Shown: in pieces, positions 2,718-64,000 of the stretch
Position numbering within the stretch: the first letter of the stretch is position 1
Layout of the letters: each line of letters begins with the position of its first letter
Origin: Armatimonadota bacterium
GTDB taxonomy: Bacteria; Armatimonadota; Zipacnadia; UBA1398; JAKPQA01
DNA length: 64,000 nt
Direction of reading: 5' to 3'
Assembly (NCBI GenBank): GCA_029547025.1
Contig: JAKPQA010000074.1
Coordinates: 8,796 to 72,795, forward strand
Program-made: the position numbers and the translations under genes
The notes under the pieces: model-generated
Seen by the model: only the letters and a program-made list of their open reading frames with translations
The model's database searches: none
What the model was told of the DNA's origin: nothing

Positions 2718-5700
2718 ATGGTGTCGGTCACAGTTCTATGCACGGCTCTGGCATCGGCGGGAGCGCCGAGCTATGTGAATGCGGGATTATGCCTGGCACG
2801 GCCCACGCCCTCCCAGGTCGAGTGGCAGGACATGGAGATCGAGATGTTCCTGTGCCTCGACCCGTGCACCTGGCAGGAACGGGAGTACGACGACCACTCC
2901 ACACCGCTCACCGCCATCAACCCCCAGCAGCTCGACACCGACCAGTGGGCGCACGTGGCGCTCTCGATGGGGGCGAAGCAGATCCTGTTCGTGGCGAAGC
3001 ACACGGGCGGCTTCTGCTGGTGGCAGACGGAGACAAGTGACTACGGCGTGCGCCAGATCCCGTGGCGCGGGGGCCGCGGCGATGTCGTCGCCGACCTGGC
3101 CGAGTCGTGCCGGAAGCATGGGCTGAAGCTGGGGCTCTATCTAAGCCCGGCCGATGACGTTCACGGAGCGACCACCGGTGGACGCTGCCCGACGGCGGAG
3201 GCGCAGGCGGCCTACGCCCGCATCTACCGCCAGCAGCTGGCCGAGCTCCTCGGGCGCTATGGCCCCATCAGCGAGATCTGGTTCGACGGGAACCTGGTCA
3301 TCGACGTCGCCGACATCCTGGAGCGATTCGCGCCGGAGGCCATGGTCTTTCAGGGTCCGCGAGCGACCATCCGCTGGGTCGGGAACGAGGAGGGTTACGC
3401 CCCATACCCGGCGTGGAACGCTGTGGCTCGCGGGGATGCCGCCTCGGGAGGTGCCACCGCTGCCCACGGTACACCCGACGGCGACGTCTGGCTTCCCATC
3501 GAGGTCGACACCGTCAACGTGTCGCCCCACTACTGGTTCTGGAAGCGGAGCCCCGAACGTCGCCTGCGTACCGTGGCGGAGCTGATGGACTGCTACTACC
3601 GCTCGGTCGGTCACGGTGCCGTGCTGTTGCTGAACCAGAGCCCTGACACTCGGGGGCTCATTCCTGCGGAGGATGCGCGCGTCGCGGCGGAGTTCGGGGC
3701 CGAGATCCGTCGCCGCTTCGGCCGGAGCCTGGCAGAGACACGCGGCCAGGGGACCCGGGTGGATCTGGACCTGGGCGGGTGGCGGTGGGTGGATCACGTG
3801 GTCACGATGGAGGAGATCCGGCGGGGCGAGCGCATCCGCGAGTACTCGCTGGAGGGCAGAACCAGCTGCGGCTGGCAGGAGTTGTGCCGTGGCACGGCCG
3901 TGGGACACAAGCGGATCGACCGCTTCGCCCCGGTCTGGGTCTCGGCGATCCGGCTGCGCTGCACGCGATCGGCTGCGACGCCGGTCATCCGGCGGCTAGC
4001 GGCCTACTACGTTGGTCTGTGTGAACCACGCGGTGGGGCGCTGCGATGGACCTTTGACCGCGACGAGGTCGGCGCGGCAGCCGGCCTCTACCGGGCCGAG
4101 CCGCGCGGCGCGCGGCTCGTTGCGGGCATTATCGGCGACGCCCTGCAACTGGACGGCCATGGTGCCCATGTCCGCCTTGGCGATGTTCCGATTCCCGAGG
4201 GAGACTTCACCCTGGCCGCGTGGATCTGCCCGCGCACCGTGACGCGCCGCGAGCAGATCATTGTGGCCAAGGAGCGGAGCGGCGTCGCCGACCACCAGTT
4301 CCGCCTGTACCTGGCGCCAGGCAACCGGGTGGGGTTCATCCACTCGGATGGGGAAGGCCACGGCGCGTGGCCCTCTGCCGGAGTGGGGGACGCGCTACCG
4401 GCGAGGCAGTGGTCGCATGTGGCGGTGACGCGGGGTCCGTCCGGGTACACCGCCTGGGTGAACGGCCAGGCCGTGGCGACCGCGCCTCCCTCGGGCAGCA
4501 TCCGGCACCGCAACACGCTGGAGCTGCGCGCCGGAGCGCGCTACGCCCCATCGGGCGACGGCGCGGACAGCCCATTCGACGGCCTGATCGACGAGGTCAT
4601 TCTGGCGCCGCGGGCTCTGTCGGAAGCAGAACTTCAGCCATCTCCGGCCGCCCGGGCGCTCATGTCGCAACCGGTGGAGATGACGCCCATGCAGAGAGGC
4701 CCACTGGCCAAGCCCACGCCGCAGCAGGCGGAGTGGCACGACCTCGAAGTGGGGATGTTCATCCACTTCGGTCCCAACACGTGGCAGAACCAGGAGGGCG
4801 ACGACCTCTCGACGCCGCTCGATCAGATCAACCCCCAACGACTGGACACCGACCAGTGGGTCTCCGTCGCTGATTCCATGGGGGCCCGGTACATTGTCTT
4901 CGTCGCCAAGCACGTCGGTGGCTTCTGTTGGTGGCAGACGGACACGACGGACTACAGCGTCGGCCACACGCCATGGCGCGGCGGCCGGGGCGACGTGATG
5001 GCTGATCTGGCCGCATCGTGCCGCAGGCGCGGGATGAAGCTCGGCGTCTACCTGTCACCTTGCGACCGCAAGCACGGCATCGACGTCGGTGGTCGCGCTC
5101 CGACTCCCGAGGCCCAAGAGCAGTACAATGCCCTCTACCGGCGCCAGCTCACCGAGCTACTCACCCGCTACGGTGACATTGTCGAGATCTGGTTCGATGG
5201 CAGCATTGTGGTGCCGGTGGGCGACATCCTGCAGGAGCATGCGCCGCGGGCGATGGTCTTCCAGGGTCCCCACGCAACGATCCGGTGGGTGGGCACCGAG
5301 TCGGGCTTCGCGCCGTACCCGGCCTGGAATGGCGTCAGCCTGGCTGACGCGAGATCGGGAGTCGCCACGGCAGCGCACGGGACCCCCGACGGCGATGCTT
5401 GGCTCCCCAACGAGGTCGATACCGTCAATGTGGTCCCACACTACTGGTTCTGGAACACCGACCCGAACCGGAGACTCAAGACCGTCGACGAGCTCATGGA
5501 GTGCTACTATCAGTCCGTCGGGCGCGGGGCGGTCCTGCTGCTGAACCAGACGCCAGACACGTCGGGACTCATCCCCCAGGCCGATGCGCGCCGCGCCGCC
5601 GAGTTCGGGGCGGAAGTGAGGCGGCGGTTCGGGATACCCATCGCAGAGACGCGGGGCCGGGGCCAGACCGTCGAGCTCAAGCTGCCACGGACGGCCTCGG

Positions 5701-5936: not shown

Positions 5937-6036
5937 TCATCTCCGACCCAAGAGCACGACAATGAGCCCCAGGCCGTGCAGTCGAAGGCACGAGTGCTGT
6001 TTGCCCGGACCGACGTGTGCCGTGTGGAGGCCGTCC

Positions 6037-8205
6037 ATGACCGAGCGCGTCAGCGCCCTGCGGGACCGTGCATTGCGCAGCCGTCGAGGCGAGGACCGGA
6101 CGACGCCGAGCCTGTGGCAGGAGTCCTATCGTCGGACCGAGGGCCTTCCCGAGGTGACGCGCTGGGCCATGGCGACGGCTCACGGCTACCGCACGCAGCC
6201 TGTGTACGTGCAGGAGTTGGAGCTCCTCGTCGGGACGCCCCCGGGCATGGTGTACGACGAGGACGGGCCGGTAGTCCCGCAGATCTTCGGCCGCCAGCCC
6301 TTCGTGTGCCCGTGGCCAGTCTCGGACGAGATCCAGCGCCTGTTTGGAGCAGGGCTGTTCTCGCCGGCGGGAAACCATACGACCATCGACTACGATGCCA
6401 TCATGGTGGGCGGGTTTCGCGGGCTGATCAGCCGTGTCGATGCGAGGCTCGCGTTGCCGCAGGTTCGGGCGGACGACGAGCAGACCGCTTTTCTGGGGGC
6501 GCTGCGGACCATCGCGGAAGGCTACATCGACTACTGCGGCCGCCATGCCGACGAAGCGCTGGCACAAGCGGCCGCCTGCGCGGACCCCCAGCGCGCTCAG
6601 GAGCTCCGCACGATCGCGGGCAACTGCCTGCAGGTGGTTGCCGATCCTCCCCGGACTTTCTGGCAGGCATGTCAGTCGGCATGGTTCTCGTTCGTCTTCC
6701 TGCCTGACGCGCCGGGGCGTGTGGATCAGTACCTCTATCCCTTCTACCGCGCGGACATGGACTCGGGGCGGCTCGACGATGACCGCGCGCGCGAGCTACT
6801 GAGCTGTCTGTGGCTGCGATATCTGGAGTTCGCGGGCGCTGCGGCGGCGGTCAGCGCGTTCCACCACCTCACTCTGGGCGGCATGCGCCCCGACGGTTCC
6901 GACGCGTCCAACCAGCTCACGTGGCTTTGCCTTGACGTCACGGAGGAACTCAGGATCCAGCGCCCCCAGGTCGGGCTGCGATGTCATGCAGACACCCCGC
7001 CGGCATTGCTCGAGCGGGCAGTGAGGGTGCTGCGGGCTCGAGCGGGGAACCCGGACTTCTGCAACGACGAGCAGATCGTGCCGGCGCTGGTGCGCACTGG
7101 CATTTCCCTCGAGGACGCGCGGGACTTCTCGCTCTCCGGCTGCCATGAGGTCATCGTGACGGGCCGTGCCCAAATGGGATCCGTCGAGGGCTTCATCAAC
7201 CTGCCGAAGGTTCTGAGGGCCGTGCTGGGGCTCGAGCCGGGGCTGCTTGGCGGGGCCACCCCCCCGTTCCCGGAGTCGTGGGAGCAGCTCTGGGAACAGC
7301 TGACATCGGCCATGAGGTGGGTGGCCTGGCGTGCCCATGAGGCGGCCCTGGCGCGCGACGAGGAGGCGGCACGTGGGGCGGGGGGCCACCTCCAAGCATC
7401 CCTCGTGGTGGGTGACTGCGTCGAGCGCGGCAAGGGCTACACCCAGGGCGGCGCCCGGTACAACCACTGCAACTGGAACGTCATCGGCCTCGCCAACCTC
7501 ACCGACGCCCTCAGCGCCATCCGGTGGCTGGTGTTCGACCAACGCCAGCTCACTCTGGCGGAGCTCGCCGGCGTGGTGAGCGCCAACTGGGTGGGTCACG
7601 AGCCACTTCGACAGCGGGTGCTCGGAGAGTCACCGAACTTCGGCAACGACGATGACCGGGCAGACGCCATCGCGACCGACCTGCTGCGGATGATCGCCGC
7701 GGCCTTTGAGGGCCTCACGCCATTTCGAGGTGGCAAGTACATCCTCGGCACTCTCGCGGGTGGGGAGAACATGCATATCGAGTTCGGCCGGATGACGGGA
7801 GCAACACCAGACGGCCGGCGCGATGGTGAGCCGCTGGCCGACAGTGCCGGGCCGGCGCAGGGACGCGACCGCCGCGGTGTGACTGCCATGATGAACTCGG
7901 TGGCCAAGCTCCCGCACCACCTGCTGCCGACGGCGACGACACTCAATGTGAAACTCGACCCGAGGCTGCTCGAAACCGATACGGGCCTCGCCAAGGTAGC
8001 TGGGCTGATCCGCGCGCACTTCGCCGCCGGCGGCCAGCAGTGCCAGTTCAACATCGTGGACCGCGAGATGCTGCTCGAGGCCCGGCGGGATCCAGAGCAG
8101 TACCGCGATCTGATGGTCCGCGTCGCGGGCTACAGCGCGCCCTTCACTTCGCTGTGGGAAGACCTGCAGGACGAGATCATCGCGCGGACGGAGCACGCGC
8201 TGTGA
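6037..8205 (+). CDS. Glycyl radical enzyme (pyruvate formate-lyase family), substrate unknown
   Basis: ATG 6037 after GGAGG; GRVDQYLYPFY, Cys loop SGCHE, GATPDGRRDGEPLAD, C-terminal glycyl loop LMVRVAGYS. Confidence 0.9.
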   Translation: MTERVSALRDRALRSRRGEDRTTPSLWQESYRRTEGLPEVTRWAMATAHGYRTQPVYVQELELLVGTPPGMVYDEDGPVVPQIFGRQPFVCPWPVSDEIQRLFGAGLFSPAGNHTTIDYDAIMVGGFRGLISRVDARLALPQVRADDEQTAFLGALRTIAEGYIDYCGRHADEALAQAAACADPQRAQELRTIAGNCLQVVADPPRTFWQACQSAWFSFVFLPDAPGRVDQYLYPFYRADMDSGRLDDDRARELLSCLWLRYLEFAGAAAAVSAFHHLTLGGMRPDGSDASNQLTWLCLDVTEELRIQRPQVGLRCHADTPPALLERAVRVLRARAGNPDFCNDEQIVPALVRTGISLEDARDFSLSGCHEVIVTGRAQMGSVEGFINLPKVLRAVLGLEPGLLGGATPPFPESWEQLWEQLTSAMRWVAWRAHEAALARDEEAARGAGGHLQASLVVGDCVERGKGYTQGGARYNHCNWNVIGLANLTDALSAIRWLVFDQRQLTLAELAGVVSANWVGHEPLRQRVLGESPNFGNDDDRADAIATDLLRMIAAAFEGLTPFRGGKYILGTLAGGENMHIEFGRMTGATPDGRRDGEPLADSAGPAQGRDRRGVTAMMNSVAKLPHHLLPTATTLNVKLDPRLLETDTGLAKVAGLIRAHFAAGGQQCQFNIVDREMLLEARRDPEQYRDLMVRVAGYSAPFTSLWEDLQDEIIARTEHAL

Positions 8206-24320: not shown

Positions 24321-27300
24321 ATGATGCCACTTCTGCTTGCATGCCTGTGGGTTATGGCCCCCTCGAGCCCCGTTCCGGCCAGCTTCCCGTTCGACGGCAC
24401 GCTCGCGTCCACCGTCGGGCACGCTCCAGTGCTTGCCGAGGGCGTCTTGTTCACCGAGGGCCGTCAGGGAGAGGCGGCCTACGTGGGCGGCCGCGCGCAC
24501 CTGGCCTATCCCGTGGGGGGCCTCTACGATCCCGCCAAGGGCACAATAGGACTGTGGGTGCGCCCCAGATGGAACGCGCGAGACATACGTGGCGACCGGC
24601 TCCTATGGTCGGTCGCGGGCGACGCGGGAGCTGACAACCAGATCGCTCTCGGGTTCTACGGAGGCGGCGACCGCACTATCGTCTACTTCTCGAACCCCGC
24701 CGGCGCCGACGGCGTGGTCTGGCCCATCGGCTGGCAGGCCGGCGAGTGGCATCACCTGCTGGCCTGCTGGGATGAGTCCACACGCTGCAGAGCCCTCTAC
24801 ATCGATGGCGTTCGCGTGGGCGTCTCGAACTTCCGGCGCGACATGCCACGCACGGCTACGACCTTCCAGGTCGGCTATCTGCCGGGCGAGTACCAGGGCG
24901 CGACAGACGCGTGCCAGGCCGAGTGTGACATCGACGACCTGCGCCTCGCCCAGACCGTCGAACCCGCCGACTTCGCCGAGGCCGTCGCTGGGCTCGAGGA
25001 GAGTGCCACACGCGCCGAGCGTGAGGCGCTCCGGGCACGGCTCGCCGAGACGTTCTCCCTGGACCGCGTCGCGCGAGAGCACATCGAGGTCACCTGGGAC
25101 GACGTCCTGGGCCTCTGCCACCCCATGACGAAGCGCGTGCCGATCCAAGTCCGCCACCACCCTGATGTCGTCTTCGTCCAGCCCGACATGTCCATCTCCC
25201 TTGGCACCCGCGACGATGCTCTGGGCCTCGGCCTGGCCCTCGGGATTCCGCCCCGTCTGCCGGGCCTGCGCCAGGTGGTGCTCCGGCTCCACCGAGGCTA
25301 CCAGCCGATCGTCATCAGCCAGTGGGAGACGGACGGGCTAACGGTGACCCAGACGGCCCTGTGCACGCTCGTGGGGGCCGAGGATGTGAGAACGGGCCGC
25401 GAGACCCAGTACGTCATCACCCACACCACCGTCAGCAACACCGGGGACACCACCCGGGAGACCACCCTGACAGCTCTCATCGGCCGAATGGGCGGCTCGC
25501 AGAACACCAACTACGGCCCCTTCATGGCCCCGGTGGACCGTTGGCTGCAACCGGACATGGGCCTGCGCCTTGCCGACGGAGTGGTGACGGTGGGCGACCG
25601 AGGCCTGCTCGCCTACCGCGCGGAGGGCACCAGCGGCCCCGAGCTCCGTCCGACCCTGGCGCTGCCCGTGCCCACAGGAGCCCCCCAACGCGAGCTCACG
25701 AACTGCCTGTGCTTCCCCACCAGCCTCGCCCCGGGCGAGGAGACCACCGTCGACCTGGTCGCTCCCACCGCGCCGGGGCTCTGCGACCCTCAGGACCTGG
25801 CCCAAGCTGCATTGACTCCGTTCGCCGAGGCGCTCTCCAGGGCGGAGGCCTACTGGGATGCTCCACTCGCCAAAGGCATGAAGCTGACCACGCCGGAGCC
25901 GCGCTATAACGACATCTACCGCCACCTGATCCTCTCGTCGCTGCAGAGCACCGTCCAGGAGCCCGACCGGCCGTGGCACGTGCCCTACCAGAGCGTCTTC
26001 GCGCCCTCCATGGTCTGGCCGTGGGAGTTCGCCCACATGGCCGTGCCCCTCATGTCCATCGGCTACGCGGAGGAGATGCGGCCGTCGCTGGCCTTCTTCA
26101 CCGAGCGGCAGACGGGCGTCGGACCGCACTCTGCCGGCCGAGGGCCCGAGGGCGATGTGCTCTCGGTGGACGGCTGCTACACCGGCACGTCGATGTACTG
26201 GATGTGCGAGACGGGCTCCGTCCTCTGGGCACTTGGCGAGGAGTATCTCCGCTCGGGCGATGCCGACTGGCTCCGCCAGCAGCGCCCGAGCATCCTCGCC
26301 GCCTGGGGGTGGATCCAGCGGGAGCGGGCCCGCACACGTCTGCGGTATGACGACGGCCGAAAGGTCGAGTACTACGGCCTTCTGCCCAAGGGCCGCGTGC
26401 ACGACTGGGAAGGGCACCGGTACCACTTCGGCTTCTCCGACGGATACACGTGGAAGGGCATGTCGACCATAGCCAATGCATTCGCGCGCGCCGGCCTGCC
26501 GGAAGCAGACCGGCTGACCGCCGAGGCCGAGGAGTACAAGCAGTGCATCCTCGATGTCGCGCGGCGGGCCGAGTTCACCGATCCCGAGACCGGCCTCTCG
26601 TTCGTCCCGAGCACCGTGTTCCACCGCGAGGGCGCCCGGGGCGGCGTCTGGTGGGCCGATGGGCCCCAGGCGCTGTTCGCCAGCGGGATCCTCGACCCCA
26701 CTGACCGGCGGTTCGAGCCGATGCTCGAGTACCTCGACCGGAAGTGGACTACCCTCATGGGGCTCATGGGCCACATGGATGGCCCTCCCGACAACACCTA
26801 CTGGTACGTGAACTCAACTGAGCGCGAGTACTACCGAGACTTCCTCGCCCGGGGCGAGTTTGAGAAGGCGTGGCTCGTGTTCACATCCAACCTGGCCTAC
26901 ACGCTGTCACACGACTGCTATCAGACCGTTGAGCGGATCGACGTGTATGAGAGCAACTTCGCGCCCTTCCAGCCCAACCCGTCGGGCAACGGCCGGCTGC
27001 TCGATATGTTCAAGCGAATGGTGGTCGACGAGCAGGATCCACGGACGCTGTGGCTCCTCCGCGGGTGTCCGCGCGCGTGGCTGGCGCCGGGGCAGTCGGT
27101 TCGGGCCTCGGACGCCCCGACGGCCTTCGGGACCGTTGGCGTCGAGTCCCGATCGACGGAGGGTGCCGTGGTAGTCCAGATCGACCCACCGGCGCAGTGG
27201 CCGCCCGATGGTCTCCGGGTCGTGGTGCGCCGGCCCGGAGGCGGCCGGTGGAGCCGCATAACGGTCAATGGCCACCGGGCCGAGCTTGAGGATGGGATCG

Positions 27301-40515: not shown

Positions 40516-42771
40516 CTATCTCCGCCAGCCGGCCCGCGAGGCCCGAGGGGCCCGGTCCGCCGCCTCTGCTTGCGCCACGATCTCGAACGGCAACGCAGGC
40601 AACACTCCGGCCGCAACCCGTCGTGTTGTTGCCGGCTTGCCGCCCTGGGCCTTGGTCTCGAGTTCCGCGTACAGCTCGACGATCAGATTGTCGACGTACC
40701 CGGCCGGCGGGGAGTCACTACCGGCGCTCAGTGTCAGCAGCAGGCCGCCGGGCACTGGCTCGACACCGTCCAGCGCGATCCCCGCCGGCGGCTCGCTCAG
40801 CGAGAGCCGAACCATCGACAGAAGCGGCCCGGCCGGCGAGTTCACCCGCACCTGCACACTCCCGCCCGCCGGGACCCGCACCGGCCCCGCGTCAGCCCAG
40901 GACACCGTCGGCACCCGCCCCCCCAACCCCGTCGTCGTCGCGAGCAGCTCCATCGAGGGCACCAGGTGCCGGTACGCGAAGGCCTGCATCATGTCTTCAG
41001 CCGGAACGGCTTCGTGAATCACCATCTGCCCAGCGATCGCCGCGGTCCCCTGCAGCCGCAGTGACACAGGCCTCCCGAACGGCTGCTTCGGCGCCGAGAC
41101 CGTGATGCGGATCGAGTCGAGCCCAGCCGGGACGCGCCCTCCCGCCAGCGCGTAGCCGGCTGGGGCATCAGCGAGCGAGACCTCGATCTCACCGTCGAAG
41201 CCGTCCTTGCGGATGGCGTGTACCGTCGCCGCGGCCGACCGCCCCGCCGGAATGCTCAGGCTCGAGGGCGTCACCCGCAGTGCGAAGTCGGGTCGGGGCC
41301 CGCTCAGACGAAGCCGGTAGCCATAGCGTTCGCCCCCATGCTGCTGAACATCCGACACGCGGACGAAGTACGGGCCATCTGCCGGTAGCTCCGCCCTCAC
41401 ATACGAGTCGGCGTGGTGCGTGATAAGCCCGGCCCCGGGGTCGGGGCTATCGTCGTTCCACGCGATGATCTTGCCGGCGCCGTCCATGAGCCGCACCAGC
41501 GAGTCCAGTTCGGAGCCGAGCCGACGAGCACTCACCTCGGCGACGACTGTCTCCCCCGCCCGGCCATCGAAGCGGTACACATCCACATCGCCCGCCCGCT
41601 CAATCCGGCCGCTCACACACACAGGCAGACGGACACTCTGCGCACGCTCCAGGCCATCGTTCGGCTCGGCCTCAACGCACTCAGGCAGCTCACCGCCCCA
41701 AGGGGCCATCGGGGTCAAGCCTAGCGGCTCGCCACCAGGCGCCGCCTCGGCCACAACCAGCCGGTACACGAAGTCCTCTCGCCCGCGGTAGAGCGCGTCG
41801 CGCACCTCGATCTCATACTCGCCATCGCTAGGCACCTCGTACAGCAGCCGAGGGTCCGGATCGAAGCCGTTGTCGTCGCAGAAGGCCACCTCGGTCCCTT
41901 TGGGGTCGCGCAGGGCCAGCACCGCCTGGAACCACCCGGGTACCGCGTCGGCCAGATAGGGCATGAGCCGGCGCGCGTGGACTTCGATCTTCAGCCGCTC
42001 CCCTTGCCGCGCCGCGAAGCGGACTCGGTCGACATCGCCGGCCAGGACCTGTCCGTTCAGGACGAAGGCGGACTCCGCCGTCTGTTGCCGACTCCCCGGT
42101 CGGTCGTTGGGCTCGCTCTCGAGCAGTTCCGGCGCCGCACCAACCTCAAAGCGCAACGGGTTCGACAGCCCCATGGGACCCGCCAGTCGGATCTCGCGGC
42201 CGCCGGGCACCGCGTTCGCGTCGATGCGGACCTCGAGCAGCACCGTCTCGGCGATAGCCCGCTGGGGCGGTTGGAGGTTTCGTGGGCTGAAGAACCACCG
42301 GGCCAGCTCCACCAACTCCGGCAACGTCTTGCTGTCCAGATCGCGAAGCAACGGGTGATCGGGCAGGTTCAGCGGCTTTGCATCGGGCGCGCGCGGCGGG
42401 ACCCGGCGCCGCAGGACGCCGAGCGTGTGTGCCGGACCCCGCTGGTCTTCCGGTATCTCGGCAACGCGCTTCTCCGCCGCCTCGGAAAAGTGGCGAGCCA
42501 CTTCCTCGAGCAGGTCCTTGTTGAGAGGGGTTGGCGGGCCGCTCGGCCGCGCCACCGAAGCCCGTACCCCCGCACCCGACACATGAGCCGCGTTGACCCC
42601 GCGCAAGAACTGGCCCCCGACGATCACCCGCACCGTGCCGCCACGCTGCCCGCCCGCTGGGTACAAGTACCCCACGTGGGGCGATCGGATGTCCGCCTGG
42701 CCCCAGCACGCACTGGCCCACAGGAGAAGCGCGGACAACGTGGCCCTACATGAGCTCCGCAAGCAGCCCAC
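40516..42771 (-). CDS. Secreted PPC (pre-peptidase C-terminal) domain protein of DUF1501/DUF1553 clusters
   Basis: PHVGYLYPAGGQRG, ESEPND, DVDRVRF, EAEPND, DVDVYRF, PRPDFALRVTPSS. Confidence 0.8.
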   Translation of the reverse strand: MGCLRSSCRATLSALLLWASACWGQADIRSPHVGYLYPAGGQRGGTVRVIVGGQFLRGVNAAHVSGAGVRASVARPSGPPTPLNKDLLEEVARHFSEAAEKRVAEIPEDQRGPAHTLGVLRRRVPPRAPDAKPLNLPDHPLLRDLDSKTLPELVELARWFFSPRNLQPPQRAIAETVLLEVRIDANAVPGGREIRLAGPMGLSNPLRFEVGAAPELLESEPNDRPGSRQQTAESAFVLNGQVLAGDVDRVRFAARQGERLKIEVHARRLMPYLADAVPGWFQAVLALRDPKGTEVAFCDDNGFDPDPRLLYEVPSDGEYEIEVRDALYRGREDFVYRLVVAEAAPGGEPLGLTPMAPWGGELPECVEAEPNDGLERAQSVRLPVCVSGRIERAGDVDVYRFDGRAGETVVAEVSARRLGSELDSLVRLMDGAGKIIAWNDDSPDPGAGLITHHADSYVRAELPADGPYFVRVSDVQQHGGERYGYRLRLSGPRPDFALRVTPSSLSIPAGRSAAATVHAIRKDGFDGEIEVSLADAPAGYALAGGRVPAGLDSIRITVSAPKQPFGRPVSLRLQGTAAIAGQMVIHEAVPAEDMMQAFAYRHLVPSMELLATTTGLGGRVPTVSWADAGPVRVPAGGSVQVRVNSPAGPLLSMVRLSLSEPPAGIALDGVEPVPGGLLLTLSAGSDSPPAGYVDNLIVELYAELETKAQGGKPATTRRVAAGVLPALPFEIVAQAEAADRAPRASRAGWRR

Positions 42772-44074
42772 CCCCCGCGACCCCGGCCGGCGCGGGAAGC
42801 AGCGACCCGCCTTCGGCACCGCGCATCGGCATCGGGCCGTCCGGGTCGATCCCCAGCAACGTGTAGATGCTCCGGATGACCTCGCTCGGATGCACCGGCC
42901 GCTCCAGAACCTCGGATCCCGTGGCATCCGACTCCCCGACCACCAGCCCGCCCCGGAACCCGCCGCCGGCGACCACCGTCGAGAAGCAGTTGCCGTAATG
43001 GCCCCGCCCGCCGTTCCACGGCTCCTCCCACTGCACGCGCGGGGTCCGCCCAAACTCCCCGCCCCACCATACGATGGTGCTGTCGAGTAGCCCCCGCTCC
43101 GACAAGTCGCCGATCAGCGCGGCCATGCCCTGATCCATCTGGGGCAGCTTCTGACGCATGGTCTCGAAGTGCCGCTTGTGTGTGTCCCACCCCTGGTAGT
43201 TGATGGTCACGTAAGGCACCCCGTGCTCCACCAGCCGCCGCGCCACCAGACACGACTGCCCGAATGTGTTCCGTCCATACCGATCCCGCATCTCGGGCGA
43301 CTCCTCGCCCAGGTCGAACACCTTCCCCCCCTGCCCGAGGATCAGGTCGTACGCCTTCGCCTCACAGCCGTCGAGCTGCTCGAACAGCTTCTCGCCCGGC
43401 ATCGCGGCCCCCAGTGAGTCCAGCGAGTGCAGCAAGTCGCGCCGCGCCTGCTGTCGCTCGGCCGTCACGCCCTCGGACACGATCCCCTCGACGGCGAACA
43501 CCTTCTGGTTGGGGTCGCCACCGGTCGCGAACGGCTTGTACCGGGCGCCGAGGAACCCGGCCTCCGAAAACCGTCCCTGCGACTGGGTGAGCACGATGTA
43601 GGGCGGAATCAAGCCCTCATACCCGTGGTCGTAGCCCCTGAACAACGACACGACCGCACCGGCCGACGGATACACGCTCCCGCCGGGCTCGCGTCCCGTC
43701 TGGACGATGTACGACGCCGTCTCGTGTGCGTTGACCCTGTGAGTCATGCTGCGGATGATCGAATACTGGTCCGCCAGCCTGGCCAACTGAGGCAAGAGCT
43801 CACCGACGAAGACCCCGGGCACGTTCGTCTCTATCGGATGGTCTAGCGGCCCGCAGTAGTCCCGCCCGGCTTCCGGCTTCGGGTCGAAGGTGTCCAGGTG
43901 CGATGGCCCCCCCCACATCCAGATCTGGATCACGGACTTGGCCCTGGGAGCCGGCGGCGTCGGCTGCGAACGCGCCCGGCCGGGACCCAACAAGGCCACG
44001 CCCGCCGCACCCACCAATCCCCGCCTCAGCAGCTCCCTGCGCGTGAGACCCGCGCCACATCGTTGCCCGTCCAT
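42746..44074 (-). CDS. DUF1501 domain protein with Tat-like signal
   Basis: ATG 44074 after GGAGGAGG; TRRELLRRG; AKSVIQIWMWGGPSHLDTFDPKP, FGQSCLVARRLVE, GWDTH, GEFGRTP. Confidence 0.92.
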   Translation of the reverse strand: MDGQRCGAGLTRRELLRRGLVGAAGVALLGPGRARSQPTPPAPRAKSVIQIWMWGGPSHLDTFDPKPEAGRDYCGPLDHPIETNVPGVFVGELLPQLARLADQYSIIRSMTHRVNAHETASYIVQTGREPGGSVYPSAGAVVSLFRGYDHGYEGLIPPYIVLTQSQGRFSEAGFLGARYKPFATGGDPNQKVFAVEGIVSEGVTAERQQARRDLLHSLDSLGAAMPGEKLFEQLDGCEAKAYDLILGQGGKVFDLGEESPEMRDRYGRNTFGQSCLVARRLVEHGVPYVTINYQGWDTHKRHFETMRQKLPQMDQGMAALIGDLSERGLLDSTIVWWGGEFGRTPRVQWEEPWNGGRGHYGNCFSTVVAGGGFRGGLVVGESDATGSEVLERPVHPSEVIRSIYTLLGIDPDGPMPMRGAEGGSLLPAPAGVAGGGLLAELM

Positions 44075-44152
44075 CGGCCCCTCCTCCAACTGCCGTCGGC
44101 GCGAGACTGGCCGGCCATACCGAGGACTCGCACGGCGGAGTCCTCCGCCACC

Positions 44153-44405
44153 CATTGGCGGTAACTGAGGGCTCCAGTGGCCCATCAGCCTGGTTGCGGA
44201 GGGGCGCCATGGGGGGAACCACGCGTCTCCCAGCGTGGTGGGCCCCCAACGCGCCCGATCGGCACGCGCCAACGTCGGGCCGGTCAGGGGCCCCGCGCCC
44301 TCTGGGCACACCCCTGCGCGGCCCCTCCGAAAGACCAGGCGGGCGTTCCCCGCGACCTTCGCGAGACCCAGCCGCCCGGCCCAGGGCCCTATGTTACCGC
44401 CAATG
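44153..44405. mobile_element. MITE copy 1 (253 bp), 13-bp perfect TIR, 11-bp TSD
   Basis: TIR CATTGGCGGTAAC 44153-44165 / GTTACCGCCAATG 44393-44405; direct repeat CCTCCGCCACC at 44142-44152 and 44406-44416; homologous to 62982-63386 in inverted orientation. Confidence 0.9.
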
Positions 44406-44483
44406 CCTCCGCCACCTCACCGGTGGTCGGACCCTATCCGGCCCGCGCCGGCCGCAAGGCCCACGTGGGCAGATCGCCAGCCG

Positions 44484-46049
44484 CTAATGCCGGCACAGGA
44501 ACTCCTTCGTGTTGATCAGTGCCCACGCCAGATCCTCGACAGCCTGCTTGGGCGTCCGACCGCCCGCCTCCAAGTAGGCGGATGCGGTCGCGACTTCGGT
44601 CGGCGTCGGCGGGCGCGACAGGACCATGTAGTAGACCGCAGTCACCTGATCCCGCCGGTTGCCCCTCCTGAGGGCGATGGCTGCTCTGAGCCGCGGGCTC
44701 GTCTCGAGCATCCGCCGGATGTCCGTCGAGTTCAGGGTGTAGAGGCGCTGCGCATCGGTCGGCTGGCCGCTCCGTTCCGAGTCCGTCCCCGTGTCCCGCG
44801 CCGGGCGGCCGAACATCTCGAGGAACGAACTCGAAATACTGCCATCCGCCAACTCGATGGCCCGCTCGTCGTCAGGCACGTACGTGAACGGCTCGGGAAT
44901 CGCGCTAATGTAGTGCTCCGGCTCCGCGCCCAGCCACCGCAACGCATCGTTGAGCACTTCGGCCTCCAACTGCCGCACCGGGTAGTAGGCGAACAGTGCC
45001 GCCGCCTCCGGGCCGTCGCTCTGCGGGATCGACGACTGCTGGTAGGTCCGCGATGTCAGAATCAGTCGGTACAGGGCCTTCAGGTCGTAGTGGCTCGCCA
45101 CAAATGCCTGCTCAAGGTAGGCCAGCAGCTCGGGGTTCGATGGCGGGTTGTCAGGCCGGATGTCATCCGGCTCCTCGACAATCCCACGGCCGAGCAACCA
45201 GGCCCACACGCGGTTGACGATAGCTCGCGCGAACCATGGATTGCCATCCGCCAGCAGCCAGTCGGCGAAGACCTGTCGCGGGTCTTGGTCGGCCGCAATA
45301 TGCACCGCTGTGCCATCCGGGAGAGTGGCGTCGAACGGCCCCAGCGGCGTCGGGTCGAGGCACACGATCTCCTCTTTCCATTCGTCGGTCTTCTTGTACG
45401 CCACCCGAAAGAAGAAGCGCGCCAGGTTCTCCCGCTCGGTCTGCGGCCAACTCGCAAGCCGCGTCCCCATGAACGTCAGCGCCACGGCTCCGGCGATGTC
45501 CTCGGGCTTCCGGCCCTGCACAGCACGGTAGAAGTTCGCCGGCGGTACCCGGAAAGCGCTGCCACTCGAGGTCAGCAGCTCGCGCGCGAACAGGTCGTAG
45601 GGCTTGTTGGTGGCCATGGCCTCGCGGACCCAGCGCTGGTAACACTGAACCGCGTTGGGCCACAGGTTGATGGGAAACTCCGCCTTGACCCGGAGCACAT
45701 CACACCACTTCATCGCCCAGTAGTCGGCGAACTCCGGGCGCTCCAGCAGCGAGTCGATCAGTCTCGCGCGCTTCTCCGGCCGCCGGTCTTGCAGGAAGGC
45801 GCGCACAACCAGGGGCTCCGGCAGCGTGCCGATGATATCCAGGTGTGCCCGGCGCACGAACACCTCGTCGGAGCAGAGGTAGGCCGACTCGATGCCCGCA
45901 ACCTGCAGCGAGGCACCGACGAGCTCATCAATGCGCGTCGCGGGCACGACCTCATCCGGCCGTTCGAAAGGCGCCACGGCCGGCGCCCGTGCGTCGACCG
46001 CGCTCGAGACGGCAATAAACGCCACCGCGCCCCACAAGGCTCCCCTCAC
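44484..46049 (-). CDS. DUF1549/DUF1553 domain protein
   Basis: CSDEVFVRRAHLDIIGTLP, KRARLIDSLL, NPWFARAIVNRVW, PPSNPELLAYL, EDLAWALINTKEF. Confidence 0.92.
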   Translation of the reverse strand: MRGALWGAVAFIAVSSAVDARAPAVAPFERPDEVVPATRIDELVGASLQVAGIESAYLCSDEVFVRRAHLDIIGTLPEPLVVRAFLQDRRPEKRARLIDSLLERPEFADYWAMKWCDVLRVKAEFPINLWPNAVQCYQRWVREAMATNKPYDLFARELLTSSGSAFRVPPANFYRAVQGRKPEDIAGAVALTFMGTRLASWPQTERENLARFFFRVAYKKTDEWKEEIVCLDPTPLGPFDATLPDGTAVHIAADQDPRQVFADWLLADGNPWFARAIVNRVWAWLLGRGIVEEPDDIRPDNPPSNPELLAYLEQAFVASHYDLKALYRLILTSRTYQQSSIPQSDGPEAAALFAYYPVRQLEAEVLNDALRWLGAEPEHYISAIPEPFTYVPDDERAIELADGSISSSFLEMFGRPARDTGTDSERSGQPTDAQRLYTLNSTDIRRMLETSPRLRAAIALRRGNRRDQVTAVYYMVLSRPPTPTEVATASAYLEAGGRTPKQAVEDLAWALINTKEFLCRH

Positions 46050-46316
46050 GCGTCGAATCCTCCCACTCCCGCCCGAAGGCCTACCACACGCCCTGCGACG
46101 ACAACACGACGGTTCTCAGCCATACTGCTGCCATCTCCTGTAACCCTCCACAACCCCTACGGGTCTCGCAACCAACCCCGCGCAGTCCTGACGGCACCCA
46201 TCGGCCATACTTGTCCCGGACGCCAAATCCCCGCCCAGAGGACACACCGGCTCCGAAGCCGAACTCCCCACCCGCCGTGACACCGGGTGCGGTAGCCGAC
46301 GATAGGACCTCACTCC

Positions 46317-62095: not shown

Positions 62096-62728
62096 TCACT
62101 TGAACTGGGTGGTGGGTTGCTGCACCAGGAACTTGGCATGCCCGTCGAGGTACCCAACAACCATGGCGCGACGGTGACCGACATGCACGGGGTAGGCCGT
62201 TTCTTTGTAGAAGTAGTCGGAGACGATCCAAGTGGTGGGTTCCCACCCGTCGGTAACCTGCCGGGGCTTGTTGCCCCAGTTGTTCGGGTTCGTGAGAAAC
62301 TGCTTGTCGACCCACTGCATGGGCAGTACGCCGGTACTGGGGAGTTCAGAGAAACAGAACCAGTAGTAGCTGATGTTGCCTGCGGCCTGGTTCTGCTCGT
62401 TGCAGACGATATCGGCGACCTGGGCGGCCGGTGCGCTCGGACAGTAGTAGATGCCCATGGCCTTGGTGTAGGGCCAGAGCTTGCTGATGAGGAGGGCATG
62501 GGGATTGCCGGCGTGGTAGTCGGACGGTAGCTCGCCGTCGTAGTCGGACGCGTACATGAGCGCGCCGTAGAGCAATTGCTTGCAGTTCGAGATGCAGGTG
62601 GCCACACGGGCCTTATCCCTGGCCTTGGCGAACACTGGGAAGAGAATGGCCGCCAAGATGGCGATGATGGCGATGACGACAAGGAGTTCGATGAGCGTAA
62701 AGCCTGGTGAGCGAGTTCGGTTGGCCAC
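62096..62728 (-). CDS. Prepilin-type N-terminal cleavage/methylation protein (DUF1559, H-X9-DG-like motif)
   Basis: GTG 62728 after GGAGG; [52 protein letters not shown]. Confidence 0.92.
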
Positions 62729-62981
62729 CTCTGCACCTCCGGTTGACCCGCGAAGGGCTTGCATCTATATGCAATTCGCATTGATATCAGGATTCCTGAC
62801 AACGGAATCTGGGAAGCACAGGTATACGCGAGGCCGGCTGGTGGGGGCACTGCGCCTGTGGCGAACGAATGAGGCGAGCGAAGGCAGCGGATTGGAGTCG
62901 GCGAACGCGAGGGAATGGGGCGGGAAGCAGGGGCTGAGACGGTGAGGCGGACCGTGAGCGGACCCAAAGACCCAAGAGGCG

Positions 62982-63386
62982 CATGGGCGGTAACATAGGG
63001 CCTTTGGCCGGGCGGCTGGGTCTCGCGAAGGTCGCGCGGAACGCCCGCCTGGTCTTTCGGAGGGGCCGCACAGGGGTGCGCCCAGAGGGCGCGGGGCCCC
63101 TGAGCGGCCCGAGGTTGAGGCGTGCAGATCGGGCGCGTTGGGGGCCCACCACGCTGGGAGACGCGTGGTTCCCCCCATGGCGCCCCTCCGAAAGGCATTG
63201 GAACCACCGAGGAGGGGCGGCACAGGGGGGCGCCCAGAGGGCGCGGGGCCCCTGACCGGTCCGAGGTTGAGGCGTGCGGATCGGGCGCGTTGGGGGCCCA
63301 CCACGCTGGGAGACGCGTGGTTCCCCCCATGGCGCCCCTCCGCAACCAGGCTGATGGGCCACTGGAGCCCTCAGTTACCGCCAATG
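62982..63386. mobile_element. MITE copy 2 (405 bp) with duplicated central module, 11-bp TSD
   Basis: CATGGGCGGTAAC 62982-62994 / GTTACCGCCAATG 63374-63386; direct repeat CCCAAGAGGCG at 62971-62981 and 63387-63397; 133-bp modules at 63058-63190 and 63210-63342. Confidence 0.9.
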
Positions 63387-63424
63387 CCCAAGAGGCGGGA
63401 CCGGCATGGCCCCGCCTCTTGGGC
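63386..63424 (-). terminator. Probable groEL terminator hairpin
   Basis: 14-bp stem GCCCAAGAGGCGGG / CCCGCCTCTTGGGC with 11-nt loop, about 60 bp after the groEL stop; the original TCTTT tail now lies beyond the MITE at 62966-62970. Confidence 0.6.
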
Positions 63425-63486: not shown

Positions 63487-64000
63487 CTAGAAGTCGTCGT
63501 AGCCGCCACCACCGGGAGGGGCGGGCGGGGGCGTCTTCTCGGGCTTCTCGGCGATGAGCGCTTCAGTCGTGAGGACCAGCGAGCCGATGCTCGCGGCATT
63601 CTCGAGAGCGCATCGAGTGACTTTGACGGGGTCGACGACGCCCGCTTTGACCAGGTCCTCGTACTTTTCGGTGAGGGCGTTGAGGCCGACCATTGGGTCC
63701 TGAGCATCGCGGACGGTGGCGGCGGCGATGGAGGGTTCGAGGCCCGCGTTGGCCGCGATCTGGCGCAGGGGTTCCTCCAGCGCGGCACGGATGATCTCCA
63801 CGCCCGTTTTCTCGTCGCCCGAGGCGCGGACTTTGTCGAGGGCGGCGATGGCGCGGATGTAGGCGGTGCCGCCGCCGGGGACGATGCCCTCCTCAACGGC
63901 CGCTCGAGTCGCGGAGAGTGCGTCCTCGTAGCGGTGCTTTTTCTCTTTGAGTTCGGTTTCGGTGGCGGCGCCGACCCGAATGACGGCGACGCCTCCGGCG
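63487..64000 (-). CDS. groEL: Chaperonin GroEL, 3' part (truncated by window edge)
   Basis: [73 protein letters not shown]. Confidence 0.97.

What the first reader, a model, noticed from the sequence alone, without database searches (positions are those of the whole stretch)
44142..44416. Unannotated MITE family with 13-bp TIRs and 11-bp target-site duplications
Seen: a 253-bp segment bounded by a perfect inverted repeat (CATTGGCGGTAAC) and flanked by an exact 11-bp direct repeat (CCTCCGCCACC). A second copy at 62982-63386, inverted, has a different exact 11-bp duplication (CCCAAGAGGCG). Two independent intact TSDs indicate real transposition. Known: 5'-CAT ends with 10-13 bp TSDs are typical of IS4-family DDE elements (IS231/ISH8/IS4 subgroups). 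Inference: a non-autonomous element mobilised in trans; no transposase is in this window.
Basis: partly seen in the sequence, partly recalled or inferred. Interest (0 to 1): 0.8.

Follow-up and report, generated by a model that had tools for sequence, protein, structure and literature searches.

The report
Small non-coding jumping DNA element family
The two flagged segments are real copies of a small non-coding mobile DNA element that occurs in roughly 60 or more copies in this uncultured bacterium's genome; it is an ordinary kind of element, and the enzyme gene that moves it was not found.

Summary
Copy 1 (44153-44405, 253 bp) has perfect 13-bp terminal inverted repeats (TIRs) and an exact 11-bp target-site duplication (TSD). 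Copy 2 (62982-63386, inverted) has one TIR mismatch, its own exact 11-bp TSD and a 152-bp internal tandem duplication.

The exact TIR occurs 64 times in this genome against 0 for a reversed control. Counts are at background in 78 class and 400 phylum genomes and in the GTDB-wide scan.

Of 27 TIR-bounded elements, 8 have perfect 11-bp TSDs and 7 have 1-2 mismatches; 0 of 27 displaced controls come close. A near-identical metagenome contig carries an insertion where this genome has the empty site. A related strain lacks copy 1.

Target sites share a two-fold symmetric G/C motif. No element of 700 bp or more carries these TIRs, and no IS4-type transposase with them was found. The IS4 (IS231/ISH8-like) link therefore rests only on the CAT ends and the TSD length.

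Verdict: a new member of a known kind, of modest interest.

The parts
44142..44152 (.). left target-site duplication of copy 1 (CCTCCGCCACC)
   Evidence: Identical 11-mer at 44406-44416.
44153..44405 (+). MITE copy 1, 253 bp, one internal module
   Evidence: 100% self-hit plus 170 further HSPs in the genome. Folds at -160.8 kcal/mol, z = -7.0. Contigs of 4 runs pile loose ends at exactly 44153 and 44405/44407.
44153..44165 (+). left TIR CATTGGCGGTAAC
44393..44405 (-). right TIR (GTTACCGCCAATG on the + strand)
   Evidence: perfect complement of the left TIR.
44406..44416 (.). right target-site duplication of copy 1
42749..44077 (-). DUF1501 gene downstream of copy 1; the start codon near 44077 is followed by a TAT-like signal
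   Evidence: Pfam PF07394, E = 6.5e-94; translation. The start position is my reading of the translation.
44487..46115 (-). DUF1549/DUF1553 (PSCyt2/PSD1) gene upstream of copy 1
   Evidence: Pfam PF07587 (3.2e-44) and PF07583 (4.8e-30). In run X3 one contig joins 44087 to 44484 with only 19 other letters between them.
62971..62981 (.). target-site duplication of copy 2 (CCCAAGAGGCG)
   Evidence: Identical 11-mer at 63387-63397.
62982..63386 (-). MITE copy 2, 405 bp, inverted, two internal modules
63059..63342 (.). 152-bp tandem duplication of the internal hairpin module inside copy 2
   Evidence: TRF: period 152, 1.9 copies, 96% matches.
63387..63397 (.). second target-site duplication of copy 2
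63387..63423 (-). 13-bp-stem hairpin just after the groEL 3' end; copy 2 was inserted into one arm of it
   Evidence: Read: CCCAAGAGGCGGG at 63387-63399 pairs with CCCGCCTCTTGGG at 63411-63423. A terminator role is inferred. The consensus scan did not call it.
62099..62764 (-). prepilin-type N-methyl/DUF1559 gene downstream of copy 2
   Evidence: Pfam PF07963 and PF07596.
63490..63999 (-). 3' part of a groEL-type chaperonin gene upstream of copy 2
   Evidence: Pfam PF00118, 2.9e-31.

Best explanation
Both segments are copies of a non-autonomous cut-and-paste DNA transposon (a MITE). It is too short to encode a transposase. A DDE-type transposase supplied in trans binds its 13-bp terminal inverted repeats (extended consensus CATTGGCGGTAAC-NNN-GGGC). 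Staggered cuts 11 bp apart in the target produce the 11-bp duplication.

The family prefers a two-fold symmetric G/C-rich target (GnGG | CC-N7-GG | nCCC). Such targets are often hairpin or REP-like sequences between genes, and include a motif inside the element itself, which gives nested copies. The element's core is a hairpin-rich module of 128-152 bp that varies in tandem copy number, probably through slippage or recombination.

Shown: the structure, the copy number, the TSDs, the target motif, one insertion polymorphism, and absence from a related strain. Inferred: that the transposase belongs to the IS4 family (IS231/ISH8-like). I put that at about 0.55. No partner gene was found, so the family may now be orphaned or mobilised from DNA outside this assembly.
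For: Structure and copy number:
- The strings sit where reported.
- The genome gives 171 BLAST HSPs, 64 exact TIRs against 0 control, and 58 left and 40 right ends.
- 65 of 738 contig termini end in the element.

Target-site duplications:
- Of 27 TIR-bounded elements, 8 have a perfect 11-bp TSD, 4 have 1 mismatch and 3 have 2. Of 27 displaced controls, 0 have fewer than 5 mismatches.
- 23 of 56 testable left ends have a perfect 11/11 partner among the right ends, and 8 more have 1 mismatch.

Mobility:
- Metagenome contig L178 carries a 251-bp copy at 2683-2933 with TSD CCCACCCACCC. G000 C254:35747-35757 has a single CCTACCCACCC, within flanks 99.85-99.93% identical.
- Copy 1 is filled in run X1. 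In run X3 a contig joins 44087 to 44484 with 19 other letters between them.

Target motif (29 reconstructed sites): G at -3 in 24, C at +2 in 23, G at +10 in 22, C at +15 in 22, against a background of 0.338 each for G and C.

No coding or RNA role:
- No Rfam family matches.
- 0 of 77 predicted pairs show compensatory change.

IS4 traits: CAT ends with repeats of 10-12 bp (IS231) or 10 bp (ISH8) are given in Table 1 of PMC2266710 (passages read).
Against: No autonomous partner was found:
- PF01609 in the genome gives 4 hits. Two are DDE_Tnp_1_4 (IS1380-type) genes without these TIRs, and two are short fragments.
- PF13546 gives 0 hits. The rve (13), Y1_Tnp (2) and Transposase_mut (3) hits lie on no contig position that matches a MITE end.
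- There are 0 TIR-bounded elements of 700 bp or more.

TSD and age:
- 11 of 27 TIR-bounded elements lack a TSD on their own contig.
- Copies differ by 4-9% from one another (pairwise identity 91.3-96.0%, median 94.1%, 36 pairs), so there was no very recent burst.
- The X3 allele replaces the whole 396-bp spacer, so it is not a clean empty site.

IS231 signature: it is matched only in part. CAT and AA at positions 11-12 match, but position 17 is G, not A.
Confidence: 0.88

Rival explanations
1. It is a MITE, but its transposase is not an IS4-family enzyme. It could belong to another or an undescribed DDE lineage, possibly carried on a phage, plasmid or unbinned contig.
For: No PF01609-type gene with these TIRs is present. 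The TIR is at background in 78 class genomes and 400 phylum genomes. The 68 GTDB-wide hits are all single hits, against my estimate of about 69 expected by chance. A phage-like metagenome contig (L198: portal, capsid) carries a related copy. The IS231 end signature is only partly matched.
Against: In Table 1 of PMC2266710, repeats of about one helical turn go with the IS4 subgroups. The three related families listed there give 4-6 bp. The CAT ends fit IS231 and ISH8. That other IS families rarely give 11 bp is my recollection and was not tested here.
Confidence: 0.35
2. It is a fossil family. The partner has been lost, the copies no longer move, and the differences between strains arise from deletion or recombination between copies rather than from new insertions.
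For: Copies are 4-9% diverged. No partner was found. 11 of 27 elements lack their own TSD, and several flanks pair with flanks of other copies, such as C278, C306, C180, C277 and C27. The X3 allele is a replacement, not a clean empty site.
Against: The L178/C254 pair is a clean filled-versus-empty site with one 11-mer against two, in flanks 99.9% identical. Simple deletion rarely restores a site so exactly. Flank swaps could also be chimeric joins made by a short-read assembler.
Confidence: 0.3
3. It is a REP/REPIN/BIME-type repeat moved by a RAYT (Y1 HUH) transposase.
For: The core module is bounded by an inverted pair of REP-like motifs and forms tandem arrays with linkers, as BIMEs do. A Y1_Tnp gene exists at C157:24587-24907.
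Against: The elements have TIRs and 11-bp TSDs. As I recall, REPINs make neither. The Y1_Tnp gene is flanked by a different hairpin repeat (GAGGCTTCAGCCTCG type), not by the MITE motif.
Confidence: 0.03
4. It is a family of structured non-coding RNA genes or regulatory RNA elements, not a mobile element.
For: The fold is strong (z = -7.0). Both window copies are intergenic.
Against: No Rfam family matches. 0 of 77 pairs show compensatory change. Copies lie in both orientations, and they have TSDs and an empty site.
Confidence: 0.02

Closest known systems
IS4-family elements of the IS231 and ISH8 subgroups, and the IS231-derived MIC231 cassettes of Bacillus cereus
   Same: They share 5'-CAT termini, short TIRs and target duplications of about one helical turn (IS231 10-12 bp, ISH8 10 bp; PMC2266710 Table 1). 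Positions 11-12 (AA) of the IS231 end signature are present. IS231 shows target specificity (PMC2266710), and so does this family. MIC231 appears only in that paper's reference list; what I say about it is recalled.
   Different: No DDE/YREK transposase is linked to this family. Position 17 of the IS231 signature does not match. According to that paper, IS231 is almost restricted to Firmicutes and ISH8 occurs mostly in Euryarchaeota. This host is a GC-rich uncultured bacterium, called Armatimonadota in earlier notes of this scan; I did not check that label.
BrickBuilt MITE of Porphyromonas gingivalis (PMC4596501; abstract read)
   Same: It is a MITE with small inverted-repeat ends that contains an internal tandem repeat of variable copy number. 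It is always intergenic and limited to one host lineage.
   Different: The BrickBuilt repeat unit is 23 nt without spacers. Here the unit is a hairpin module of 128-152 bp with linkers. The sequences are unrelated.
Bacterial MITEs in general (Correia/NEMIS, RUP, Nezha, Chunjie); names recalled, not read here
   Same: They are small, multi-copy and non-coding, with TIRs and TSDs, and they are intergenic and strongly folding.
   Different: The 11-bp TSD is longer than I recall for most described bacterial MITEs. No cognate IS is known for this family.
REP/BIME/REPIN elements with RAYT
   Same: These are GC-rich hairpin motifs in inverted pairs, arranged in tandem arrays with linkers, lying between genes.
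   Different: This family has TIRs and TSDs. The genome's own Y1_Tnp gene is flanked by a different repeat.

Membership tests
MITE (non-autonomous DDE transposon) | Small size and no room for a transposase | tested here: met
   TIR-bounded elements are 222-615 bp. The frames that run through copy 1 gave no Pfam domain within it: the DUF1501 match starts at residue 159, outside the element.
MITE (non-autonomous DDE transposon) | Terminal inverted repeats | tested here: met
   13 bp, perfect in copy 1 and with 1 mismatch in copy 2. They are conserved across 20 aligned copies.
MITE (non-autonomous DDE transposon) | Target-site duplications of fixed length that differ between copies | tested here: met
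   11 bp: 8 perfect and 7 near-perfect of 27, against 0 of 27 controls. 11 of 27 have none on their own contig.
MITE (non-autonomous DDE transposon) | Many dispersed copies | tested here: met
   58 left and 40 right ends; 64 exact TIRs.
MITE (non-autonomous DDE transposon) | Empty site at an orthologous locus | tested here: met
   L178 is filled and C254:35747-35757 is empty. A contig in run X3 lacks copy 1, though its whole spacer differs.
MITE (non-autonomous DDE transposon) | A cognate autonomous IS with the same TIRs | tested here: not met
   None is present in the assembly, in the returned metagenome contigs, or in GTDB or viral scans.
IS4 family (IS231/ISH8 subgroups) | DDE transposase with the Y(2)R(3)E(6)K motif | tested here: inconclusive
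   No transposase could be tied to the element. The PF01609 hits are IS1380-type genes or fragments.
IS4 family (IS231/ISH8 subgroups) | Direct repeats of about 10-12 bp | tested here: met
   11 bp, against Table 1 of PMC2266710.
IS4 family (IS231/ISH8 subgroups) | 5'-CAT ends | tested here: met
IS4 family (IS231/ISH8 subgroups) | IS231 end signature CAT-------AA--TAA--- | tested here: inconclusive
   CAT and AA at positions 11-12 are present. Positions 15-16 are TA in many ends. Position 17 is G, not A, in the aligned copies.
REP/REPIN with RAYT | No TSD, and the same REP flanks the RAYT gene | tested here: not met
   TSDs are present. The Y1_Tnp gene at C157 is flanked by a different repeat.
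Rfam RNA families | A match at the gathering score | tested here: not met
   0 matches over 43000-64000.

The most novel reading that the evidence does not exclude
The family is still mobile in wastewater populations although the host carries no cognate transposase. On this reading it is moved in trans by an enzyme brought in on a phage or other mobile DNA, or by an undescribed DDE lineage that makes 11-bp duplications and recognises a symmetric REP-like target. The element's BIME-like core would expand by a second, independent mechanism. That would make it a hybrid of two repeat-propagation systems.
Probability: 0.1. Interest if true: 0.55.

Novelty: new member of a known kind. Interest (0 to 1): 0.3.

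Why it matters
For this uncultured lineage, the family explains about 9% of the contig breaks in the assembly (65 of 738 termini). It marks possible chimeric joins. It also provides insertion-polymorphism markers that separate closely related wastewater strains.

Its strict 11-bp duplication and symmetric target motif give a precise search key for the missing transposase. If that enzyme proves to be IS231/ISH8-like, it would extend those subgroups well beyond the hosts listed in 2008.

Copy 1 sits inside a two-gene DUF1549/1553-DUF1501 unit. Copy 2 splits a hairpin after groEL. Both could therefore affect transcription, but this is untested.

As biology it is an ordinary MITE.

Tried and rejected
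- Partner search by TIR pairs. Six pairs 1.2-4.8 kb apart proved to be one real MITE end plus a chance match. The two I examined by Pfam (C30 and C202) hold ordinary genes: a metallo-beta-lactamase fold, a glycoside hydrolase and URO-D.
- Self-complementarity test over 18 nt: 0 elements of 700 bp or more.
- Contigs C267 and C355 carry DDE_Tnp_1_4 transposases but no MITE TIR, even at up to 3 mismatches.
- Metagenome contigs L167, L183 and L198, which are not in the assembly, hold chemotaxis, ferritin, glycosyltransferase and phage structural genes, and no transposase.
- GTDB-wide pattern scan: 68 single hits in unrelated taxa. I estimate about 69 are expected by chance for 17 fixed bases in 596 Gb.
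- Viral scan: 3 hits with no further similarity.
- Weak hits of the core module in same-order genome G005 (E about 3e-4) are a different hairpin repeat.
- Consensus scans found no promoter and one weak terminator-like site.
- Empty sites fold better than random 61-mers (-24.4 against -20.6 kcal/mol, Mann-Whitney p = 0.0012). However, they are also richer in G+C (72% against 68%), so I give this little weight.
- By-sequence look-ups could not link this family to the earlier MITE note. C172 coordinates did not fit that note either.
- Literature: one paper holds both 'miniature inverted-repeat transposable' and 'Armatimonad', and it is about house microbiomes (listing only). Supplements were not seen.
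- In runs X2 and X4 the junctions of copy 1 were not covered, so nothing follows from them.

Full report
**Observation**

The sequence is exactly as described.

Copy 1 runs from 44153 to 44405 (253 bp). It begins CATTGGCGGTAAC, ends with the perfect complement, and is flanked by CCTCCGCCACC on both sides.

Copy 2 runs from 62982 to 63386 (405 bp) in the opposite orientation and is flanked by CCCAAGAGGCG on both sides. One of its terminal repeats has a mismatch (CATGGGCGGTAAC). Aligned to copy 1, it is the same element with a 152-bp tandem duplication of the internal part.

**A family, not a pair**

The window is G000:C342:8796-72795, in a 6.3-Mb assembly of 369 contigs.

- Copy 1 gives 171 BLAST HSPs in the genome.
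- The exact 13-mer occurs 29+35 times against 0 for the reversed control. With up to 1 mismatch the counts are 51+62 against 2+1.
- BLAST with the two 41-nt ends finds 58 left and 40 right termini. This suggests roughly 60-70 insertions, but strain-variant contigs in the assembly may inflate the figure.
- 65 of 738 contig termini lie within 60 bp of an HSP, so the element is a major cause of assembly breaks.

An alignment of 20 complete copies shows conserved ends and a mosaic interior. There are 253-bp forms, 298-bp forms with an extra hairpin, 265- and 311-bp forms, and block-wise differences in hairpin loops. Arrays of the internal module reach about five units with linkers of about 26 nt (C6, C176, C94). 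The nine 253-type copies are 91.3-96.0% identical to one another, with a median of 94.1% over 36 pairs.

**Target-site duplications**

Twenty-seven TIR pairs lie 100-700 bp apart on one contig. One or two of them are probably chance pairs.

| Mismatches between flanking 11-mers | Elements (of 27) |
|---|---|
| 0 | 8 |
| 1 | 4 |
| 2 | 3 |
| 3 | 1 |
| 4 or more | 11 |

With 11-mers displaced 11 bp outward, 0 of 27 have fewer than 5 mismatches. None of the 8 perfect TSDs extends to 12 bp.

Across contigs, 23 of 56 testable left ends have a perfect 11/11 partner among the right ends, and 8 more have 1 mismatch. Several elements without their own TSD have flanks that pair with flanks of other copies (C278 with C306, C180 and C277; C306 with C27; C12 with C120). 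This points either to recombination between copies or to chimeric joins by the assembler. I cannot tell which.

**Mobility**

It fails to refute.

Metagenome contig L178 (Ga0116184_10005086) matches G000 C254 at 99.85% and 99.93% on either side of a 251-bp copy at 2683-2933. That copy is flanked by CCCACCCACCC twice. C254:35747-35757 has the uninterrupted site with one CCTACCCACCC.

For copy 1 itself, contigs of run X1 cross both junctions. X1 may be the source sample, so it is not independent. In run X3, from another study and year, one contig joins 44087 to 44484 with 19 other letters in place of 396. Its flanks differ at 21 of 342 and 7 of 815 positions. That related strain therefore has the two genes nearly abutting and no element, but the whole spacer differs, so it is not a clean empty site.

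In all four runs, many contigs stop matching at exactly 44153 and 44405/44407, and their onward letters disagree. This confirms the element's ends from many loci.

**Target choice**

Twenty-nine reconstructed sites show the following, against a background of 0.338 each for G and C:

| Position | Base | Sites (of 29) |
|---|---|---|
| -3 | G | 24 |
| +2 | C | 23 |
| +10 | G | 22 |
| +15 | C | 22 |

The pattern GnGG|CC-N7-GG|nCCC is two-fold symmetric about the centre of the duplication, as expected for a dimeric transposase. A few of the sites share one right end, so they are not fully independent.

Many sites are REP-like motifs. GGAGGGGCCGAATAGGGG has only 15 copies in the genome, yet it hosts several insertions. 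A similar motif inside the element hosts nested copies (C226, C97).

Copy 2 was inserted into one arm of a 13-bp-stem hairpin just after groEL. Copy 1 sits beside a smaller hairpin. Empty sites fold somewhat better than random 61-mers, but they are also richer in G+C.

**Surroundings**

Copy 1 lies between a DUF1549/DUF1553 gene (44487-46115, minus strand) and a DUF1501 gene. The DUF1501 start is probably near 44077. Copy 2 lies between the 3' end of groEL (63490) and a DUF1559 prepilin-type gene (62099-62764). Both copies are intergenic.

- No Rfam family matches.
- The element folds strongly (z = -7.0).
- 0 of 77 predicted pairs show compensatory change across 18 copies.

The structure therefore looks like that of palindromic DNA rather than a selected RNA.

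**The missing transposase**

PF01609 finds four places in the genome. Two are DDE_Tnp_1_4 (IS1380-type) genes on small contigs without the TIR, and two are short fragments. Further Pfam searches gave the following:

| Family | Hits in the genome |
|---|---|
| PF13546 (DDE_5) | 0 |
| PF00665 (rve) | 13 |
| PF01797 (Y1_Tnp) | 2 |
| PF00872 (Transposase_mut) | 3 fragments |

None of these coincides with a MITE-end match. No TIR-bounded element of 700 bp or more exists.

The TIR is at background level in 78 other genomes of the class and 400 of the phylum. Across 185,579 species genomes the extended pattern gives 68 single hits, close to the roughly 69 I calculate as expected by chance. The three viral hits are also chance. 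The assembly is 96% complete and repeats are often unbinned, so a partner may exist outside it.

**Comparison with what is known**

Table 1 of De Palmenaer et al. 2008 (PMC2266710; passages read) lists the following:

| Group | Ends | Direct repeats (bp) |
|---|---|---|
| IS231 | CAT-------AA--TAA--- | 10-12 |
| ISH8 | CAT-----------T----- | 10 |
| IS4 | - | 10-13 |
| IS701, ISH3, IS1634 | - | 4-6 |

This family has CAT ends, AA at positions 11-12, often TA at 15-16, but G at 17, and an 11-bp duplication. That fits an IS231/ISH8-like enzyme but does not establish one, because the defining feature, the transposase, is missing.

A RAYT origin is rejected. The elements make TSDs, and the genome's Y1_Tnp gene is flanked by a different repeat. 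A MITE with an internal tandem repeat has a precedent in BrickBuilt (PMC4596501; abstract read).

**Earlier notes of this scan**

Note e1-922717 reported a new MITE family of about 230 bp in dozens of copies on another piece of this genome, and called the host Armatimonadota. I confirm that the genome holds such a family. I could not link the two by sequence or by coordinates. I did not check the phylum name.

Note e1-1380464 reported REP repeats with RAYT in relatives. I saw a Y1_Tnp gene with its own flanking repeats in this genome.

**Verdict**

This is a genuine MITE family, specific to this lineage, with an 11-bp TSD, a symmetric target motif, a variable tandem core and one clean insertion polymorphism. 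Its partner transposase is unknown. It is a new member of a known kind. Interest: 0.3.

Noticed in passing
L198 (Ga0116184_10004417) about 3077-3365; also 6021-6089 and 8059-8190: A phage-like metagenome contig (SPP1-type portal, capsid, weak tail-tube match) is not in the assembly. It carries a copy of a MITE subfamily, 96% identical to the C17/C82 ends over 188 bp, between the portal and capsid genes. It also carries other repeats shared with the host genome. It may be a prophage of a sister strain or a phage that picked up host repeats.
   Followed up: partly
G000:C157:24200-25400: A Y1_Tnp (RAYT-like) gene at 24587-24907 is flanked on both sides by tandem copies of a different hairpin repeat (GAGGCTTCAGCCTCG type). 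This is a classic REP-RAYT arrangement and is unrelated to the MITE.
   Followed up: partly
G000:C267 (L031) and G000:C355 (L032): Two small contigs each hold an intact-looking DDE_Tnp_1_4 (IS1380-type) transposase of 464 and 450 aa. C267 has 22-nt inverted repeats at 394-415 and 2046-2067. They may be contaminant or unplaced IS copies.
   Followed up: partly
G000 contig pairs C50/C357, C79/C341, C212/C347, C18/C19, C339/C340 and others: Pairs of short contigs are 90-95% identical over their whole length. This suggests that the assembly mixes two related strains, which could inflate repeat counts.
   Followed up: no
G000: MITE flanks at C278:30539-30760, C306:12204-12456, C180:19926-20178, C277:59976, C27:113960: The 11-bp flanks of these copies match each other crosswise rather than within one element. 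This indicates either recombination between copies or chimeric joins through the repeat in the short-read assembly.
   Followed up: partly
window 44088-44483 compared with run X3 record 18: A related strain has only 19 nt between the DUF1549/1553 and DUF1501 genes where this genome has 396 nt. The pair is therefore probably one operon, and the long spacer here is secondary.
   Followed up: partly
G000:C134:2-793 and C80:4558-5338: These are tandem arrays: a period of about 159 bp at the start of C134, with related units on L198, and a period of about 89 bp in C80. They were seen in the self-comparison.
   Followed up: no
L035 and L038 (genome G005, same order): A hairpin repeat (GGGGCCGCATTGGGGGGACCGCCGAAGGCGGTGGGCCCC type) resembles part of the MITE core at about 75% identity. 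It is a possibly related REP-like motif family in the order.
   Followed up: no
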